Shown here one piece after another: positions 26,397 to 56,743 of a stretch of DNA of 64,000 nucleotides. A program made the position numbers and the translations under genes. The stretch spans positions 18,737 through 82,736 of the forward strand of contig CACNYU010000001.1 of NCBI GenBank assembly GCA_902624785.1, read 5' to 3'. Origin of the DNA: an uncultured Prochlorococcus sp. (lineage in GTDB: Bacteria > Cyanobacteriota > Cyanobacteriia > PCC-6307 > Cyanobiaceae). Each line of letters opens with the position of its first letter. Position 1 is the stretch's first letter. Below the pieces are notes generated by a model. It saw only the letters and a list, made by a program, of their open reading frames with translations, had not been told where the DNA came from and searched no databases.

Positions 26397-26592
26397 ATTT
26401 ATGAAGATATTATTTTTTTACTTTAGCCTAAATAGGATATTTTAAAAATCTTAAATAAATTACCTCAATCATTTCATAAAAAAACTATTTATTTATCAAA
26501 TTTCCTTTTAAACTAGAAATTATATATTAGAAATACATTTAATATAAAAACTTTAGTTAATAATTTTCTCTAATTAAATTTTTAGATTTTAC

Positions 26593-26616
26593 AAAAAAAG
26601 AGGGCTTCATGCCCTC
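26593..26616 (-). terminator. Rho-independent terminator
   Basis: GAGGGC-atgaa-GCCCTC followed by a T-run on minus. Confidence 0.7.
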
Positions 26617-26806
26617 AATGTTTTTAGATTAGCTGTCAACTTTGATTTGCGTTACTGGTGTTTAAACCAATCATTAAATTCTGTGGTGGACTTTCGATCA
26701 TCTCTAACCCCTCCATATTAATAAGTCAAATTTATTTCGCTTAGATCCATAAGTAAATCTGTAAATATACTGATTTATATTCTCTGAATCACCAAACTAT
26801 TTTTAA

Positions 26807-27338: not shown

Positions 27339-29048
27339 TTACAGCAGAAAATATCTTTGAGACATTGGAACTTCATTTAGGGGTTCGCAAGTGAGGAGTT
27401 CTCCATCTGCAAAAACTTCATAAGTCTGGGGATCTACCGATAAAGCAGGTAATTTATTATTGAGTTTTAAATTTTGTTTTCCTATAGATCTAGTATTTTT
27501 TACGGCAACACATCTTTTTTGTAAACCAAGCTGCTTCGGGATATCAAGTTCAATAGCATTTTTACTTAAAAAAAGATATGAACTATTGATCTTTGATAAG
27601 CCATAATTGGCAAACATAGGTCTTCCATATACTGGTCCTGGAGTAGGTATTGAAGCATTTGCATCTCCCATTTGAGCCCATACAATAGAACCATTCTTAA
27701 CAACAATTTCTGGTTTTACACCAAAGAATGCTGGTTTCCATAAAACCAAATCTGCTAATTTACCTTTTTCAATAGAACCTACATACTCATCTAAGCCATG
27801 AGCAATGGCTGGGTTTATAGTTACTTTTGAGATATATCTTTTAACTCGAAAATTATCATTTCTTTCTGAATCTTCTTGTAAAAATCCTCTTTGTAATTTC
27901 ATCTTATGGGCTGTCTGAAATGTTCTTGTTATAACTTCGCCTACTCTCCCCATAGCTTGAGAATCACTTGCAATTATCGAAAATGCACCAATATCATGCA
28001 GAATGTCTTCAGCCGCTATAGTCTCTCTTCTAATTCTAGATTCAGCGAAAGCTATATCCTCGGGGATTTTTGAATCTAAATGATGACAAACCATAAGCAT
28101 ATCCAAATGTTCTTCAAGTGTATTTTTTGTATAAGGGCGAGTTGGATTAGTACTACTTGGTAGGATATTCTTCTCTCCGCAAATTTTTATGATATCTGGA
28201 GCATGACCTCCTCCTGCACCCTCAGTATGAAAAGTATGAATGGTTCTACCAGATATAGAATTTATAGTATCTTCAACAAAACCGGCTTCATTTAAAGTAT
28301 CAGTGTGGATACATACTTGAACATCGTATAAATCAGCAACATTTAAACAGGAGTTTATCGTCGCTGGTGTAGTACCCCAATCTTCATGTAATTTTAATCC
28401 ACATGCTCCTGCATTAACTTGATCAACAAGATTCTTTTCATTCGTAGAGTTACCTTTTCCAAAGAAGCCTAAATTCACAGGAAAAGCCTCTGCAGATTGA
28501 AGCATTCTACCTATATGAAAAGATCCTGGTGTACATGTTGTGGCATTAGTTCCTGTTGCAGGACCTGTACCTCCACCAAGCATTGTAGTTATACCAGATG
28601 CTAATGCCGTTTCTATTTGCTGAGGGCATATAAAATGTATATGAGTATCAATTGATCCGGCTGTTAATATATGGCCCTCTCCTGCAATCACCTCTGTTGA
28701 GGCTCCTATAATTATGTCAACATTATCTTGTATATCTGGATTACCTGCTTTACCAATATTTGAGATATTTCCATCTTTGATTCCAATATCTGCTTTTACA
28801 ATTCCCCACCAATCAACAATTAGAGCATTAGTTATAACTGTATCAACAGCACCATCATCTCTAGAAATCTGTGACTGCCCCATACCGTCTCTGATAACCT
28901 TACCGCCTCCAAATTTAACTTCGTCTCCATAAGAGGTAAAATCTTTTTCAACCTCAATTATTAACTGAGTATCAGCAAGTCTTACTCTATCTCCAGTTGT
29001 AGGACCATAAGTTTGAGAATATGTTTTTTTATCTATCTTATAAGCCAT
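27339..29048 (-). CDS. ureC: Urease alpha subunit
   Basis: Ni-site motifs [33 protein letters not shown] and SDSQAMG. Confidence 0.99.
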
Positions 29049-38430: not shown

Positions 38431-38673
38431 TCAATCAATAACGTTTACTTTTTGATTGATTGATTTGAGCCATGAATAATATCTTGATTTTCTATTTCTT
38501 TGCTCTTTTAAAACTAATCTATCCGCAGACTGATATGGAGATTCACCTCTTTCGATATTTGTCGTTATGCAGATGCCATATCCTTTAGCCTCAATTTTTG
38601 CATTAGCCCCCTCCAAAAAAAAGAGAAAAGACCAACCTTTATTCCATCCAAGATAAAAAGGGTTAGGGTTCAT
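38431..38673 (-). CDS. Conserved hypothetical protein
   Basis: 80-aa ORF, GWSFLFFLEG...SADRLV. Confidence 0.6.
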   Translation of the reverse strand: MNPNPFYLGWNKGWSFLFFLEGANAKIEAKGYGICITTNIERGESPYQSADRLVLKEQRNRKSRYYSWLKSINQKVNVID

Positions 38674-38852
38674 TATATTTTCAAGAAGTTTCTAAATAAA
38701 TCATAAATTCCTTTGAAAAACTTTCTTGTAATTAGAACTACAAAATAATTAGTTTATTTTTAATTAATTTTCATATAGATGCCATTTGATGCAATCTCTT
38801 TATTTAAGTATTGAGGAAAACTCTTATTGATAATTAAAATAAAGCTATCTTC

Positions 38853-38889: not shown

Positions 38890-38994
38890 TTAATTTGTAT
38901 AAATCTTTCCTCTGTATTTGAGGGTTACATGATCTTTTGATGAGGATGACTTAGTTTGTAGGACATATTTCTGTCCTCTATATACGAGATTCAT
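38890..38994 (-). CDS. DUF4278 peptide (34 aa, two YRG repeats)
   Basis: MNLVYRGQKYVLQTKSSSSKDHVTLKYRGKIYTN; GGAG RBS upstream. Confidence 0.85.
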   Translation of the reverse strand: MNLVYRGQKYVLQTKSSSSKDHVTLKYRGKIYTN

Positions 38995-39000
38995 AACACT

Positions 39001-39072
39001 CTCCGTTTACGCTTAAGTCCCCGTTCCATGGCTTAAGTCGATCTGCGGCTTGCTTTTAAGCAAGTTGAACGT
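39001..39072 (-). ncRNA. Glutamine-II riboswitch (Downstream-peptide motif)
   Basis: 5' CGTTCA, hairpin CTTGCTT/AAGCAAG, GCA, then CTTAAG stem with GGAACGG loop able to pseudoknot with CGTTC; sits upstream of a YRG peptide. Confidence 0.85.
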
Positions 39073-39076
39073 TTTG

Positions 39077-39090
39077 GTATTATTTAATAC
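39077..39090. promoter_or_regulatory. NtcA-type box overlapping the riboswitch promoter (likely repressive)
   Basis: GTA-ttatttaa-TAC 5 nt upstream of the riboswitch 5' end. Confidence 0.55.
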
Positions 39091-39132
39091 ATTTATAAAT
39101 TTACCATAACTGAATAATTTATTCAATTAAAC

Positions 39133-39174
39133 GTAAAAATGAATACTTTTTAATGATCAATAATTTATTAAATT
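39133..39174 (+). promoter_or_regulatory. Canonical NtcA-activated promoter
   Basis: GTA-aaaatgaa-TAC (39133-39146), 22 nt, TAAATT (39169-39174). Confidence 0.65.
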
Positions 39175-39177
39175 TAA

Positions 39178-39251
39178 CTAACAGAAATCTCCTCACACAT
39201 TAATTTCTGTTAGGTTTCTAGATTTTCCTTCCAGTAAGTAAAAAATCTTTT
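39178..39251 (+). ncRNA. Yfr1/Yfr10-like sRNA candidate carrying the CTCCTCACAC seed
   Basis: 11-bp stem CTAACAGAAAT/ATTTCTGTTAG presents the loop CTCCTCACACATTA; second hairpin AGATTTT/AAAATCT with a T-run. Confidence 0.7.
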
Positions 39252-40183
39252 TATTTATAAAATACGAATGATAACTGATTCAAAGACTATCTCTTTAATT
39301 ATACTTATCATTATGATTATGATCCTGTTTATTATTCTATTTTAAATTCCCAAAAATAAAAGTTATCTATTAAATACTTAAGAATAAAAATTAATTTTTA
39401 GGAAATAAAAATTACATCCTCTTAAGATTTAAATAATTTTTGTTATTTAAAATGAAATACCATAGAAATTAGAATATTTCGTTAAACCTAGTAAAAAAAT
39501 TTAGGAACTGATTCTTCATAAACTATCCAAATTTATTTAAGATACTATTTAAGTATCAACTTTTACTACTTTATATATTAGATTAAAATTTTAGAATTAA
39601 TTTACATAGACAACAAATTTATTTTAGTTAGTTATATTTACACGATAGATATTAAAAACAAAATAACAAATGAAAGCAACAATATTTAATGAAATCACGA
39701 AAATCTAAGTCCCTATTGGCTGTTTGGAATCAATTTTTTATTATGAATTTCTCTTTTAATTTTTGAAAATAATTATTTTTCATTTTCAAGAAGAAGTTTA
39801 TATAATTTAAATCAACTCTTAAATTTTGTCTAATTAATATTTATCTAGGGATGAGAATTCTAATTATTAAAAAACAAAAAAAAATTAGTGACAATTTAAT
39901 AGATTCTTTTTATCCTTAAAACTCTCAACTATTTTCTTATAAAGTTCTTCTGAGATAGGTTGCATTTTAATGACTAAATGTACTAATAATTTAATTAATT
40001 TTCAATATTATTTAAGTTATAAGATATACGAATAAATACACCTATTTAAAAACAAACTGATTGTTTATACCTGTTTTACTTGAAAATTTTATAGATATGT
40101 AGAATTCGGTAAAGTTCGCCTAACTTCCTCCTTTTAATAAAAAACTCTTTAAAATTTATTCATTAACAAAATTCTTCTAAAAA

Positions 40184-40423
40184 TTGTCTAAAAAATTAAA
40201 AAAAGAATTATTCTGCGGTTTAGCTGATTGGATAATTGATAGCGAGCCAAATTATCCCTCATTTGGAGATTGCAAGTTATGGGTCAAGAAGAAAAACTCT
40301 AATTTCAAAATTACAAAAGAAATTGAAAGGGAAATATTGATGCTTTTAACTTATCTACCTATGAGTCAACGAATGAATAATGACTTACATGCTAAATATT
40401 TAGATCAAATATTGAATAAATAA
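40184..40423 (+). CDS. Hypothetical protein
   Basis: LADWI...PSFGDCKLWV; similar to 20663. Confidence 0.55.
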   Translation: MSKKLKKELFCGLADWIIDSEPNYPSFGDCKLWVKKKNSNFKITKEIEREILMLLTYLPMSQRMNNDLHAKYLDQILNK

Positions 40424-40807
40424 TATTCTCATAAATCAACATTCAAGAAAATATTTAAAGATATAAATATCTAGATTTTGAGGCCTAAAAAGATGCTCAT
40501 AAAGATTTTTAATAAATAAAATACATAAATTATTTATTTTCATGAAAATGAATTAATATTAAATAATAGGATCTGATTAAAAAAATTTTTTGACTCTGTA
40601 TTAATAGTAATTAATAATCCATTATTTATATTCATTAAAGACATATTCCTTATCTGACTTTTTTGAGATTAGTATTCTTTCAAGAGCATTCAATATGGCG
40701 TATGAAGAAATTTTATTTTGATATATGTAATTCAATTTAATAAGTTCTAATAAAAAATGTTTTAAACTAATAATTTAAATTAATAAATTAAAAATAACTA
40801 ATAATAT

Positions 40808-40933
40808 TTATAAATTATTTAATTTTGAATTAATTTTTTCTGCCTCATTCAAAAATCCAAGTGTTTCTTTTCTTCCGAAAGCAAATTCAGCAAGAATAAT
40901 AAGAGCTTGATATTTTTTATAATAATTTTCCAT
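40808..40933 (-). CDS. Small helical protein (41 aa, GRKE motif)
   Basis: MENYYKKYQALIILAEFAFGRKETLGFLNEAEKINSKLNNL. Confidence 0.55.
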   Translation of the reverse strand: MENYYKKYQALIILAEFAFGRKETLGFLNEAEKINSKLNNL

Positions 40934-40987
40934 ATAAAAGATCTAAGTAATCAATAAAATTTATATATTATTTTAAATAAGTAATTT

Positions 40988-41111
40988 GTATTAACAATGA
41001 CATAATATCTAGAATATTTTCTTTTGTTCATATATATTAAAATTTTGTATCTACTAATACTATTTCAAAATAAAATATCCATTAAAAATATTTTTTAGTA
41101 TTAGAAATTAC
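40988..41111. promoter_or_regulatory. Cluster of NtcA-type boxes upstream of the porins
   Basis: GTA-N8-GAC 40988-41001, GTA-N8-TAC 41047-41060 and 41098-41111. Confidence 0.5.
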
Positions 41112-41171
41112 AATATTAATTTTATAAAAATACTTTATTAAGAATGTACTTTATTACGTGTGAGGCAATTT

Positions 41172-42584
41172 ATGAAGTTTTTCCAAACTTTATTATTAGC
41201 TCCTGCTGTCTTAGGAATTATTGCTCCTATTTCTGCAAGTGCTACTGACATTAACCTTGAAGGAATGAATAGCTATTCAAGTAGCTCAAGGTCTGCAGGA
41301 TTTACAAACAATTATTTAAATGTTCAGCCAGGAGATTGGGCACACCAATCAATCAAAGATCTTGTTAAGTCAAGAGGCTGCAACGTAAATGTAAATGACA
41401 ATTCACTAACTAGATTTGAAGCTGCAGCTATCGTTAATTCCTGCTTAGGAGATGTAGCAGAAGTTTCAAATATTGAAAGAAGTCTTATCGATGAATTTTC
41501 AAGTGAGATTGCTCTTCTAAGAGGCCGTGTAGATGGCATCGAAGCTAGAATGAATGAATTCGAAGCAGGAAGTTTTTCTACTACAACAGTTGCATCATTT
41601 TCAGCTGATTTTGCAATAGGTGCTGTTGATGGTAAAAGTGTAACTGTACCAGGTGGTACCGGCACAAAAGTATTCGGTGATGATACTCTTGTTACAAAGG
41701 AAGCTGATTCAACATCAAAAGCTGAAGCACTTTCTTTTGATTATGCTTATCAAATTGATTTGACAACAAGCTTTACAGGTGAAGATTCATTAGATGTAAC
41801 CCTAGCTGCCGGTGTTGGTACACTTTCCGAATTTGATTTGAGCAAGGATGATGGCGACACATTGGTTGTAGATGGAATTTCTTACACCTTGCCATTAGGA
41901 GATAAGTTAACAACATTTATTAGTCATGGTGTTGAAGGGAGTGCACTTTTTAATACAGCATGTGTATATGGTGGCCCCACAAATACTTTAGATGACTGTG
42001 GAAATCTTAATTCTGCCTTAGCTGTTGGATTAGGAACTGCTGCGGGTGCATCCTATGATTTTGGTAATGGTTTAACAGCCTCAGTAGGATATGAAGGACA
42101 AGGAGACACAAAATCTGGAATTGGTACTAAGGAGGGTCTTGATGCGATAGCAGGCCAATTTGCTTACTCAACAGATAGTTTTGGTGTATCGGTTACACTT
42201 GCTGAAATTGAAACAAGTGCAACTCATGATGATACTTTTACAGCATTTAATGCATACTACTCCCCAATTAACAGCGGATTCCCATCCGTCAGTGTTGGTT
42301 ATGAGTGGGGCGATGTCGGAGGTGCAGCTTCGACTGAAGATGAGACCTCCCATTATTTCATTGGCCTTCAATGGGATGAGATTGGGGAAGGTACTTTTGG
42401 TATCGCTGCTGGAACTCATACACCAGTCATTGAAGATGGAGATGAGCTTATGATGTATGAAGCTTGGTATTCTTATCCAATTAATGATGGAATGACTATT
42501 ACCCCTTTAGTTTTTACTAAAGATATGGCTACTGGTACTGATGATCAAACTGGAATAATGGTGAAAACATCATTTAGTTTTTAA
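41172..42584 (+). CDS. som: Som-type outer-membrane porin with SLH domain
   Basis: MKFFQTLLLAPA signal, SLH (VQPGDWA..TRFEAAA), FSTTT, terminal TSFSF; ATG at 41172 after GTGTGAGG. Confidence 0.92.
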   Translation: MKFFQTLLLAPAVLGIIAPISASATDINLEGMNSYSSSSRSAGFTNNYLNVQPGDWAHQSIKDLVKSRGCNVNVNDNSLTRFEAAAIVNSCLGDVAEVSNIERSLIDEFSSEIALLRGRVDGIEARMNEFEAGSFSTTTVASFSADFAIGAVDGKSVTVPGGTGTKVFGDDTLVTKEADSTSKAEALSFDYAYQIDLTTSFTGEDSLDVTLAAGVGTLSEFDLSKDDGDTLVVDGISYTLPLGDKLTTFISHGVEGSALFNTACVYGGPTNTLDDCGNLNSALAVGLGTAAGASYDFGNGLTASVGYEGQGDTKSGIGTKEGLDAIAGQFAYSTDSFGVSVTLAEIETSATHDDTFTAFNAYYSPINSGFPSVSVGYEWGDVGGAASTEDETSHYFIGLQWDEIGEGTFGIAAGTHTPVIEDGDELMMYEAWYSYPINDGMTITPLVFTKDMATGTDDQTGIMVKTSFSF

Positions 42585-42603: not shown

Positions 42604-43956
42604 ATGAAATTATTTCAAAAGTTACTTCTAGCACCTGCTGCTATTGGTGTTTTAGCACCAATAGCTGCTAATGCTTCTGAAGCTAACTTTCAAGATGTGA
42701 CTAATTATGCTCAATCTGATATTGAGATTAATCAAGATGCATTTAAACCTTTAACTACTACAAATCCACTTTTTGCTGGAGGTGAAGGATTAAATCAGAA
42801 TTCAAATAGTGATTTTGATACTGATTCATTCTCTTCTACAACGACACTCGACGGAAAAGCAGTTTTCGTATTAGGTGCTGTTGATGGCAACGTTGATTTA
42901 GGTGAAACATCTAAAGGTACCAGCACAAAAGCAGGTTCAGGTGATACTGCTGGAATCACATTTGTTACTCAGACATCAAGCGCGAAGTCTTCTGATGCTG
43001 TTTCAGCCGCTTATGTTTACCAAATGAACTTAAATACAAGTTTCACTGGTGACGATAACCTATATGTAAGGTTAAAATCTGGCGACGGTTTTGAAAACTT
43101 TGGAAGTAAGCCTGGTACTTACTTAAACGAAACCAAAGATAATGGTGACGTACTTAAGGTTGACAAGATCTGGTACACATTTCCTCTTGGAGACAAGGTT
43201 GAAGCAACTATAGGTCCAAAGATTGAGAACTATTACATGCTTGCAGCAAGTCCTTCTGTTTATCAGCCAAAACTACTTAAAGCATTTAGATTTGGTGGTC
43301 ATGGAATTGCTTTCGGTGCAAGTACTTCAACAGGTCTTGGTTTAAAGTACACCGCAGATAACGGATTTGCATCAAGTATCACTGTTAACTCAAAGGGTGC
43401 TGCAGGTAAAAAAGGTTTCCTAACAGATGAGGACACTAACAAGTTGAATGCAATGGTTGCTTATACAAAAGATAACTACCATTTATCAGCAACTTATACT
43501 GCTCAGCATGGAAACTTCGGTGCTTTCCACTATTTTTCAACTGACACAATCGATGGAAGTGCAGATTTAAGTGGATATGCCTTAAGAGCTTGGTTTAGAC
43601 CTGATGAGACAGGGACAGCAGTTCCTTCAGTTTCAGTTGGCTACGACACAGTAGACTTTGCAGATAAACCAGGTGGTTTCGAAAATGGAAGTGGCTATTC
43701 AATCGCTTTTAACTGGCAGGATATGTTCCAGGCTGATGATGTGATTGGTATCGCTTTTGGACAACCAATCAAAGGTGAAGACAATGTTACTTCAGGTGTA
43801 AGTGATGTAGATCCTTTCCTTTGGGAAGCTTACTACTCATTCCGTCCAAATGATTCCATTGAGGTAACTCCTGGTGTCTTTGGTGGTACTGATGTAAGAG
43901 ATGACAAAACTGATGACATCTTTGGTGCTGTTTTACAGACAACATTCAAGTTTTAA
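42604..43956 (+). CDS. som: Som-type porin lacking the SLH domain
   Basis: MKLFQKLLLAPA, FSSTTTLDG, LNTSFTGDD and WEAYYSF motifs; terminal TTFKF. Confidence 0.92.
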   Translation: MKLFQKLLLAPAAIGVLAPIAANASEANFQDVTNYAQSDIEINQDAFKPLTTTNPLFAGGEGLNQNSNSDFDTDSFSSTTTLDGKAVFVLGAVDGNVDLGETSKGTSTKAGSGDTAGITFVTQTSSAKSSDAVSAAYVYQMNLNTSFTGDDNLYVRLKSGDGFENFGSKPGTYLNETKDNGDVLKVDKIWYTFPLGDKVEATIGPKIENYYMLAASPSVYQPKLLKAFRFGGHGIAFGASTSTGLGLKYTADNGFASSITVNSKGAAGKKGFLTDEDTNKLNAMVAYTKDNYHLSATYTAQHGNFGAFHYFSTDTIDGSADLSGYALRAWFRPDETGTAVPSVSVGYDTVDFADKPGGFENGSGYSIAFNWQDMFQADDVIGIAFGQPIKGEDNVTSGVSDVDPFLWEAYYSFRPNDSIEVTPGVFGGTDVRDDKTDDIFGAVLQTTFKF

Positions 43957-56510: not shown

Positions 56511-56567
56511 ATGGAAATCCCGTTCCCTATTTCCATTTCATGCGTCCAAGATAGCTAGGATGAACGT
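56511..56567 (-). ncRNA. Glutamine-II riboswitch (Downstream-peptide motif), second copy
   Basis: CGTTCA-TCC..GGA-CGCA-..ATGGAAAT-aGGGAACGGG-ATTTCCAT on minus. Confidence 0.8.
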
Positions 56568-56743
56568 ATATATAAGAATAACATTGAATTTATTTGTTTG
56601 TGAGAGTAAAAATTACTAATACTCAAGATATAAAAAACTTTTGGGGTTTAAAATAAATTGCGTTTTAAATTTTTTACTGATTATTTTTAATATTTAAGAA
56701 AGGTTAAAAAGTATAGTGACTATACTTTATTTTTTTGTTATGA

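What the first reader, a model, noticed from the sequence alone, without database searches (positions are those of the whole stretch)
39133..41172. NtcA-driven Yfr1-like sRNA whose seed matches the RBS of the porin gene 2 kb downstream
Seen: GTA-N8-TAC-N22-TAAATT, then a perfect 11-bp hairpin exposing CTCCTCACAC, then a terminator-like hairpin. The first porin has GTGTGAGG at 41158-41165 over its RBS, an exact 8-nt complement of CCTCACAC. The second porin leader lacks it. Established: cyanobacterial Yfr1 carries ACUCCUCACAC and represses som porin mRNAs through this pairing, and Yfr1-like paralogues occur in Prochlorococcus. Inference: a locally encoded, nitrogen-responsive sRNA that shifts porin output, for example silencing the SLH porin while the SLH-less one is still translated.
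Basis: partly seen in the sequence, partly recalled or inferred. Interest (0 to 1): 0.8.

Follow-up and report, generated by a model that had tools for sequence, protein, structure and literature searches.

The report
Extra Yfr10 RNA with nitrogen promoter
This is an extra, partly worn copy of a known small regulatory RNA family (Yfr10) in a marine Prochlorococcus; its match to the nearby pore-protein gene is a known pairing that four other RNAs in the same genome match equally well, and the only new element is a changed promoter that would likely switch it on when nitrogen runs short.

Summary
The sequence features are real. The RNA is a Yfr10-type paralogue (Rfam 36.2 bits, cut-off 43), back-to-back with a glutamine-riboswitch/DUF4278 gene. 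The porin match is not local: Yfr1 and three other Yfr10 copies in this genome pair with the same site at the same energy. GTGTGAGG precedes 49 of 55 som starts, and only 1 of 27 porin loci has such an RNA upstream. Yfr1 repression of som is published, and som mRNA is enriched in both the Yfr1 and Yfr10 pull-downs. What differs is the promoter: GTA-N8-TAC at about -41.5 replaces the GTA-N5-TAC motif of ordinary yfr10 genes (0 of 28 have the N8 box). The arrangement was found in 2 of 285 genus genomes; box and -10 are identical in both. Against: published Yfr10 RNAs fall in N starvation, the box is bare-consensus, the terminator is weak, and the one orthologue has two seed changes and lacks the second porin. 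Verdict: likely an NtcA-rewired Yfr10 feeding a shared seed pool (0.45); a decaying copy is the main rival (0.28); a dedicated porin switch is unlikely (0.07).

The parts
38890..38994 (-). 34-aa DUF4278 (IF17-like, Yfr6-type) ORF
   Evidence: ORF; PF14105 E 6.6e-5, 23.6 bits, just under the 25.3 cut-off
39012..39074 (-). Glutamine-II riboswitch in the leader of that ORF
   Evidence: RF01704 71.1 bits, cut-off 33
39077..39090 (.). NtcA-type box 1, over the inferred start of the riboswitch transcript (repressing position, inferred)
   Evidence: same place in 28 of 28 other riboswitch loci that the script could anchor, out of 29 fetched; described for the MED4 gene in PMC6212724 (passages)
39133..39146 (.). 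NtcA-type box 2, centred about 41.5 nt before the inferred sRNA start (activating position, inferred)
   Evidence: 14 of 14 identical in G156, with a 16-nt insertion upstream of it and none between it and the -10
39169..39174 (+). -10 hexamer TAAATT
   Evidence: 6 of 6 identical in G156
39181..39253 (+). Yfr10-type sRNA gene, about 73 nt (ends inferred; Rfam match 39180-39261)
   Evidence: RF02362 36.2 bits, E 0.0037, cut-off 43, model positions 1-78 of 78
39189..39198 (+). Yfr1/Yfr10 seed CTCCTCACAC in the loop of the 5' stem (39181-39188/39203-39210)
   Evidence: 8 of 10 identical in G156
39220..39253 (+). weak AU-rich terminator-like hairpin with U-tract
   Evidence: arms 7 of 7 and 12 of 12 identical in G156, loop 11 of 15; -4.4 kcal/mol or weaker; not listed by the terminator scan
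41098..41111 (.). NtcA-type box in the porin promoter region, 74 nt before the ATG
   Evidence: identical in G156; a box at -74 to -78 stands before 21 of 55 som starts
41158..41165 (+). GTGTGAGG over the porin 1 ribosome-binding site, complement of the seed
   Evidence: duplex -14.3 kcal/mol, rank 3 of 1244 ORF starts in the genome
41172..42584 (+). som porin 1 (470 aa), with the N-terminal SLH-like part
   Evidence: NF033921 E 3e-28 from model position 9; OprB; the SLH label is recalled, no HMM hit
42604..43956 (+). som-like porin 2 (450 aa), lacking the N-terminal part and the seed site; starts 19 nt after porin 1
   Evidence: NF033921 E 7e-25 from model position 108; 28% identical to porin 1; absent at the orthologous place in G156

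Best explanation
This is a lineage-restricted Yfr10 paralogue that is likely transcribed from about 39181, is predicted to be switched on by NtcA when nitrogen is short, and would act in trans on the targets shared by all Yfr1/Yfr10 RNAs rather than on the neighbouring porin alone. Steps: (1) shown: two GTA-N8-TAC boxes lie between the divergent DUF4278 gene and the sRNA gene. (2) Inferred: NtcA at box 1 represses the IF17-like gene, and NtcA at box 2 activates the sRNA. (3) Computed: the RNA folds a 5' stem with the seed in its loop. (4) Computed, and published for MED4 Yfr1: the seed pairs over the RBS of som porin 1. (5) Computed only: it pairs better still with a TonB-dependent receptor leader and with Yfr2. 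(6) Inferred: it tops up the seed pool in N starvation, when ordinary Yfr10 falls and the Yfr2 sponge rises, damping synthesis of outer-membrane barrels.
For: Full-length Yfr10 model match, with Yfr10 architecture, seed in a stem loop (PMC6778093 discussion). The promoter differs from ordinary yfr10: 22 of 28 seed-bearing loci have GTA-N5-TAC and 0 of 28 have GTA-N8-TAC within 70 nt. In G156 the box is 14/14, the -10 6/6, the 3' stem arm 8/8 and the terminator arms 7/7 and 12/12, while the spacer (17/22), the bases after the -10 (1/6) and the loop vary; the 16-nt insertion falls upstream of box 2, so box 2 keeps its distance to the sRNA -10, not to the DUF4278 start. In metagenome contigs of 4 runs the listed changes in box 2 are in the N8 spacer, none is listed in the seed, and runs X2 and X3 tally no C>T change at all, so the G156 seed allele at 39194 is not general (16 rows were hidden). 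The window is an N-regulon cluster (urease, urt, amt, two glutamine riboswitches) with 22 boxes against 7.5 expected. ntcA is in the genome.
Against: MED4 Yfr10 goes down in long N starvation, and SS120 and WH8102 Yfr10 fall slightly (PMC6778093). Box 2 is bare consensus: the boxes at urtA, amt, glnA and ntcA in this genome all end TACA, box 2 does not, and its right half ATACT resembles the ancestral yfr10 motif. Local identity to G156 is about 82%, so 14/14 is only suggestive, and only 2 of 285 genomes have the locus. The G156 copy has two seed changes (duplex -11.1 kcal/mol with its own porin, against -16.7 for the intact seed) and no longer scores as Yfr10. With a start at 39181 the best fold hides part of the seed (unpaired probability 0.57; 0.85 from 39180; 0.97-1.0 in the paralogues), and the terminator is weak. 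A porin rose 1.42-fold under azaserine in SS120 (PMC5451487 passages), which is not what N-driven porin silencing predicts.
Confidence: 0.45

Rival explanations
1. A decaying yfr10 duplicate: little or no functional RNA is made, and the seed persists only in some haplotypes.
For: Below the Rfam cut-off, while the genome's other three copies score 50.5-73.4 bits. No G-C-rich terminator and lower seed accessibility. Two seed changes and a stem mismatch in the only orthologous genome. Yfr1 and three intact Yfr10 copies make it redundant.
Against: Box, -10, stem arm and terminator arms are better kept than the spacers around them. Contigs of X2 and X3 with G156-like flanks keep C at 39194, and the X3 contig across the seed has 13 differences, 12 of which I could place, all outside the seed.
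Confidence: 0.28
2. A functional Yfr10 paralogue that is not NtcA-driven: box 2 is a chance or relic form of the ordinary yfr10 upstream motif, and the RNA follows light/dark like MED4 Yfr10.
For: Published Yfr10 responds to light and dark and its regulator is unknown. Box plus -10 arises in 6% of shuffles. The box lacks the TACA end of the known regulon boxes.
Against: The geometry differs from the ancestral motif: N8 instead of N5, and 22 instead of about 26 nt to the -10. It is kept in phase in G156.
Confidence: 0.2
3. One reading: a locally dedicated sRNA that silences the SLH porin while the SLH-less porin behind it is still made.
For: Exact 8-nt complement at the porin 1 RBS and none at porin 2. 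The two lie 2 kb apart.
Against: Identical pairing by four other RNAs. Only 1 of 27 porin loci with at least 2.5 kb upstream has a Yfr10-like element. The same tandem occurs without a local sRNA in 5 loci. Porin 2 is missing in G156. The 19-nt gap suggests coupling. The best predicted target lies on another contig.
Confidence: 0.07

Closest known systems
Yfr10 sRNA family (Rfam RF02362; Yfr10, Yfr12, Yfr18 of Prochlorococcus MED4)
   Same: Seed in the loop of a 5' stem that starts at the inferred first base, then a second hairpin and U-tract; about 75-80 nt; several copies per genome; som mRNAs are enriched in both the Yfr1 and the Yfr10 pull-down tables (PMC6778093 supplements 5 and 6).
   Different: 36 bits, under the cut-off; U for A at the first motif position; AU-only terminator; no yfr2 behind it (25 of 27 relatives' loci have one; this genome's C2 copy also shows none nearby); GTA-N8-TAC instead of GTA-N5-TAC upstream; divergent from a glutamine-riboswitch gene.
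Yfr1 (guaB-trxA sRNA) and its repression of som porins PMM1119/PMM1121
   Same: Same seed and same RBS site; the MED4 PMM1121 reporter leader has the same bases from the site to the start codon (supplement 7); 2.7-3.0-fold seed-dependent repression in E. coli (PMC2796815 passages).
   Different: Yfr1 holds the seed between two stems and is near-constitutive; this genome has its own Yfr1 between guaB and trxA on C14.
NtcA-controlled sRNAs NsiR4 (Synechocystis) and NsrR1 (Nostoc)
   Same: An sRNA under direct NtcA control (named in PMC6778093).
   Different: Unrelated sequence; NsiR4 is not conserved in Prochlorococcus (PMC6191309 passage); here NtcA control is only predicted.
Yfr6-type IF17-like gene with glutamine-II riboswitch and repressing NtcA site
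   Same: Riboswitch, DUF4278 peptide and NtcA box over the start, as described for MED4 (PMC6212724 passages).
   Different: 0 of 28 relatives' loci have a seed RNA back-to-back with it.

Membership tests
Yfr10 sRNA | Yfr1 motif ACUCCUCACAC | tested here: inconclusive
   10 of 11; first base U; 8 of 10 kept in G156
Yfr10 sRNA | motif in the loop on top of a 5' stem | tested here: met
   from 39181 an alternative fold competes
Yfr10 sRNA | Rfam RF02362 score at or above 43 bits | tested here: not met
   36.2 bits, E 0.0037, full-length; so filed as Yfr10-type, not as a cut-off member
Yfr10 sRNA | intrinsic terminator hairpin with U-tract | tested here: inconclusive
   arms conserved but -4.4 kcal/mol or weaker and not listed by the scan
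Yfr10 sRNA | encoded upstream of a yfr2 gene (usual in HL strains) | tested here: not met
   no yfr2 loop motif within 2 mismatches in 39201-41200 (the motif was read, and its yfr2 label rests on recall and on the 5' motif)
Yfr10 sRNA | accumulates as a discrete RNA | not testable with these tools
   only assembled contigs of cDNA libraries were available
Yfr1 sRNA | between guaB and trxA, seed between two stems | tested here: not met
   the true Yfr1 is on C14
NtcA-activated promoter | GTA-N8-TAC about 22 nt before a TAN3T -10 (centre near -41.5; geometry recalled) | tested here: met
NtcA-activated promoter | box conserved in orthologues | tested here: inconclusive
   14/14 in one genome at about 82% local identity; spacer-only changes listed in metagenome contigs, 16 rows hidden
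NtcA-activated promoter | NtcA binding and induction by N limitation | not testable with these tools
   needs EMSA and expression data; published Yfr10 RNAs fall

The most novel reading that the evidence does not exclude
A low-iron Prochlorococcus lineage has rewired a Yfr10 copy to NtcA and placed it back-to-back with the IF17-like gene, so one nitrogen signal represses the glutamine-synthetase inhibitor and turns on an RNA that throttles outer-membrane uptake proteins, above all the TonB-dependent iron receptor, whose leader is the best predicted target in the genome and carries the seed site in 10 of 11 receptor loci. That would be a direct NtcA-sRNA link between nitrogen status and iron uptake in Prochlorococcus.
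Probability: 0.2. Interest if true: 0.6.

Novelty: new variant of a known kind. Interest (0 to 1): 0.3.

Why it matters
The RNA family and its porin pairing are known, so most of the finding is confirmation. If the promoter is real, it shows how a genome with few protein regulators can give an old sRNA seed a new input by changing one duplicate's promoter, and it supplies an NtcA-controlled sRNA in a genus that lacks NsiR4. Two side results are testable and perhaps worth more: a conserved GTA-N5-TAC palindrome upstream of ordinary yfr10 genes, whose regulator is stated to be unknown, and a conserved Yfr1-family site on TonB-receptor leaders in Prochlorococcus. Searches for Yfr10+NtcA (2 papers) and Yfr1+TonB+Prochlorococcus (1 paper, on Nostoc) showed no report of either link; the library lacks most subscription papers.

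Tried and rejected
RNA evidence: contigs of 4 metatranscriptome runs (at most 3 samples, 2 studies) cover 38700 to about 39075, that is the riboswitch and DUF4278 gene, and none covers 39078-39293. An 80-nt AT-rich RNA is easily lost from such libraries and assemblies, so this says nothing either way. JGI metagenome scan for this copy's stem: 1 stretch, an ordinary yfr10-yfr2 locus. Viral scan for the promoter: 2 hits inside an unrelated sequence, no seed. Box-plus-seed pattern: 6 of 285 genus genomes match, but 4 lack the Yfr10 stem, and the reversed control hits 24 genomes by my count of rows, so the pattern alone is chance-level. In the family, 2 of 401 match; the other (G520, L148) is a seed RNA before yfr2, 1 of 15 in its genus, with no -10 at 22 nt that I could see, taken as chance. 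Five genomes with the same porin tandem gave no match to this locus beyond short Yfr10 or terminator-like pieces; they are incomplete. I considered the C after GTGTGAGG a weakened site, and rejected that because the validated PMM1121 leader has it too. I considered the A-U change at the stem base compensatory, and rejected that because it reads as a one-base shift of the stem. Tolonen et al. 2006 could not be read, so the N response of MED4 som genes was not checked; Read et al. 2017 main text has no passage on porins or Yfr RNAs, and its supplements were not read. Two look-ups of earlier findings returned nothing.
Full report
Setting. The window comes from an incomplete (55.6%), 29.7% G+C genome of high-light Prochlorococcus type. 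The closest titled porin relatives are Prochlorococcus, the best at 78% from the HNLC group; that this is a low-iron lineage is recalled, and fits a TonB-dependent receptor on contig C15. The window is a nitrogen cluster: urease, urtABCDE, an amino-acid-type ABC transporter, amt and two glutamine-II riboswitches (urease, urt and ABC labels partly read from the translations). It has 22 GTA-N8-TAC boxes against 7.5 expected.

Observation. The 11-bp repeat is far beyond chance (z -5.8). Ordinary copies in this genome begin their stem 6 nt after the -10, which puts the start at 39181, or at 39180 by the Rfam alignment. So only 8-9 pairs would be transcribed, and the outer pairs are not conserved. 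The second hairpin is AU-only and weak.

What it is. The stretch 39180-39261 matches the whole Yfr10 model at 36.2 bits, below the cut-off of 43. The genome also holds Yfr1 between guaB and trxA and three Yfr10 copies at 50.5, 61.2 and 73.4 bits. Yfr10 matches occur in 99 of 120 other genus genomes searched. That box is present in 28 of 28 anchored relatives' loci, and none of them has a seed RNA opposite.

What is in print. PMC2796815 (abstract and passages): Yfr1 represses PMM1119 and PMM1121 2.7-3.0-fold by pairing at the RBS. PMC2518516 (passages): Yfr10, Yfr12 and Yfr18 share the motif and sit next to yfr2-family genes. PMC6778093 (parts 1-4 of 7, supplement 1, and rows of supplements 4-7): Yfr10 holds the motif in a stem loop, is titrated by Yfr2, rises in darkness, falls in high light and long N starvation, and its regulators are unknown; som peaks are enriched 2.2-2.7-fold in one pull-down table and 5.9-8.6-fold in the other (Yfr1 and Yfr10 by file order). 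PMC6212724 (passages): the MED4 IF17-like gene has an NtcA site over its start, read as repressing. PMC6974561 (passages): porins and TonB-dependent transporters are predicted Yfr1 targets in Nostoc.

The porin link is not local. The seed loops of this RNA, Yfr1 and the three other copies all give -14.3 kcal/mol with the porin 1 leader and -1 to -2 with porin 2. In 37 porin loci, 49 of 55 starts with enough upstream sequence carry GTGTGAGG. Of 27 loci with at least 2.5 kb upstream, 1 has a Yfr10-like element, and that one (L089) is the orthologue, counted once with L067. Five loci (L117-L121) have this window's tandem, first porin with the site and second without, and no local sRNA. The orthologous locus has no second porin. 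Among 1244 ORF starts in the genome, porin 1 ranks third; the TonB receptor ranks first at -17.6 (hybridisation only, no accessibility term).

The promoter is the new part. Among 30 top-scoring Yfr10 loci, 28 show the seed; 22 of these have GTA-N5-TAC upstream and none has GTA-N8-TAC within 70 nt. This copy has GTA-N8-TAC 22 nt before its -10. A DNA search of 285 genus genomes found one full-length orthologue, G156, at 78% (two candidates were scored per genome, and many genomes are incomplete); the pattern search agrees. In G156 the box is 14/14, the -10 6/6, and a 16-nt insertion lies between the two boxes, so box 2 stays in phase with the sRNA and not with the DUF4278 gene. Local identity is about 82%, so this is suggestive only. 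The box lacks the TACA end seen at urtA, amt, glnA and ntcA here, the last two of which read GTT at the left half.

Is it alive? Mixed. G156 has two seed changes and a stem mismatch, pairs 5.6 kcal/mol worse with its own porin, and has no Yfr10 score. In contigs of four DNA runs from four studies (X1 may be the source sample), the listed changes fall in spacers, the outer stem, the loop after the seed and the terminator loop. X2 and X3 tally no C>T change, although they hold contigs with G156-like flanks. The caveats: 16 rows were hidden, ordinary Yfr10 contigs pile on the seed in X2 and X5 and mask rare alleles, and contigs drop variants. Seed accessibility and terminator strength are lower than in the paralogues.

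Mechanism. Most likely NtcA represses the IF17-like gene at box 1 and activates this RNA at box 2 (both inferred). The RNA then joins the common Yfr1/Yfr10 pool, pairing with som and TonB-receptor leaders and with Yfr2 (-15.9 to -17.9 kcal/mol). The som promoter has its own conserved box (41098-41111; 21 of 55 starts), so any N response of the porin could be transcriptional, and its sign is unknown. A porin rose in SS120 under azaserine, which cuts against simple silencing. Probabilities: rewired and functional 0.45, decaying 0.28, functional but not NtcA-driven 0.20, dedicated porin switch 0.07.

Verdict. A real feature, a known RNA family and a known pairing, with an untested promoter change confined to a small lineage. 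Interest 0.3.

Noticed in passing
G000 C15 21347-23750 (L064, L132) and L133-L142: TonB-dependent receptor genes carry TGTGAGG just before the start in 10 of 11 loci, across 31-76% protein identity; 6 of 11 also have GTA-N8-TAC 84-92 nt before it. They are likely Yfr1/Yfr10 targets, and their signal peptides look som-like.
   Followed up: partly
L031-L060, about 57-47 nt before the seed: Ordinary yfr10 genes share a near-palindromic GTA-N5-TAC motif (22 of 28 loci), a candidate site for the unknown yfr10 regulator.
   Followed up: partly
window 41098-41111; L089-L125: som promoters carry GTA-N8-TAC at -74 to -78 from the ATG in 21 of 55 starts, and often a second at -55. This suggests direct NtcA-type control of som, sign unknown.
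   Followed up: partly
G000 C20 near 9500 (ntcA) and C7 near 7390 (glnA): Both promoters have GTT-N8-TAC rather than GTA-N8-TAC, so strict-consensus scans miss core regulon sites in this genome.
   Followed up: no
window 42604-43956; L117-L121: A porin lacking the N-terminal SLH-like part and the seed site follows different first porins at about 15-20 nt in several genomes, and is absent in G156.
   Followed up: partly
window 38728-38741 and 39553-39566: Further GTA-N8-TAC boxes kept in G156. The first has a -10 22 nt away on the minus strand, before an 80-aa ORF at 38431-38673 with no family hit.
   Followed up: no
window 40184-40423: 79-aa ORF conserved in G156, no Pfam or NCBIfam hit.
   Followed up: no
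window 26588-26722 (-), 28607-28893 (+), 56511-56569 (-): Yfr11, the 5' ureB antisense RNA, and a second glutamine-II riboswitch divergent from amt.
   Followed up: no
G000 C12 445-524 (-) and 2881-2959 (+): Two Yfr10 copies in inverted orientation within a partly duplicated stretch at about 80-85% identity; only the first has yfr2 behind it.
   Followed up: no
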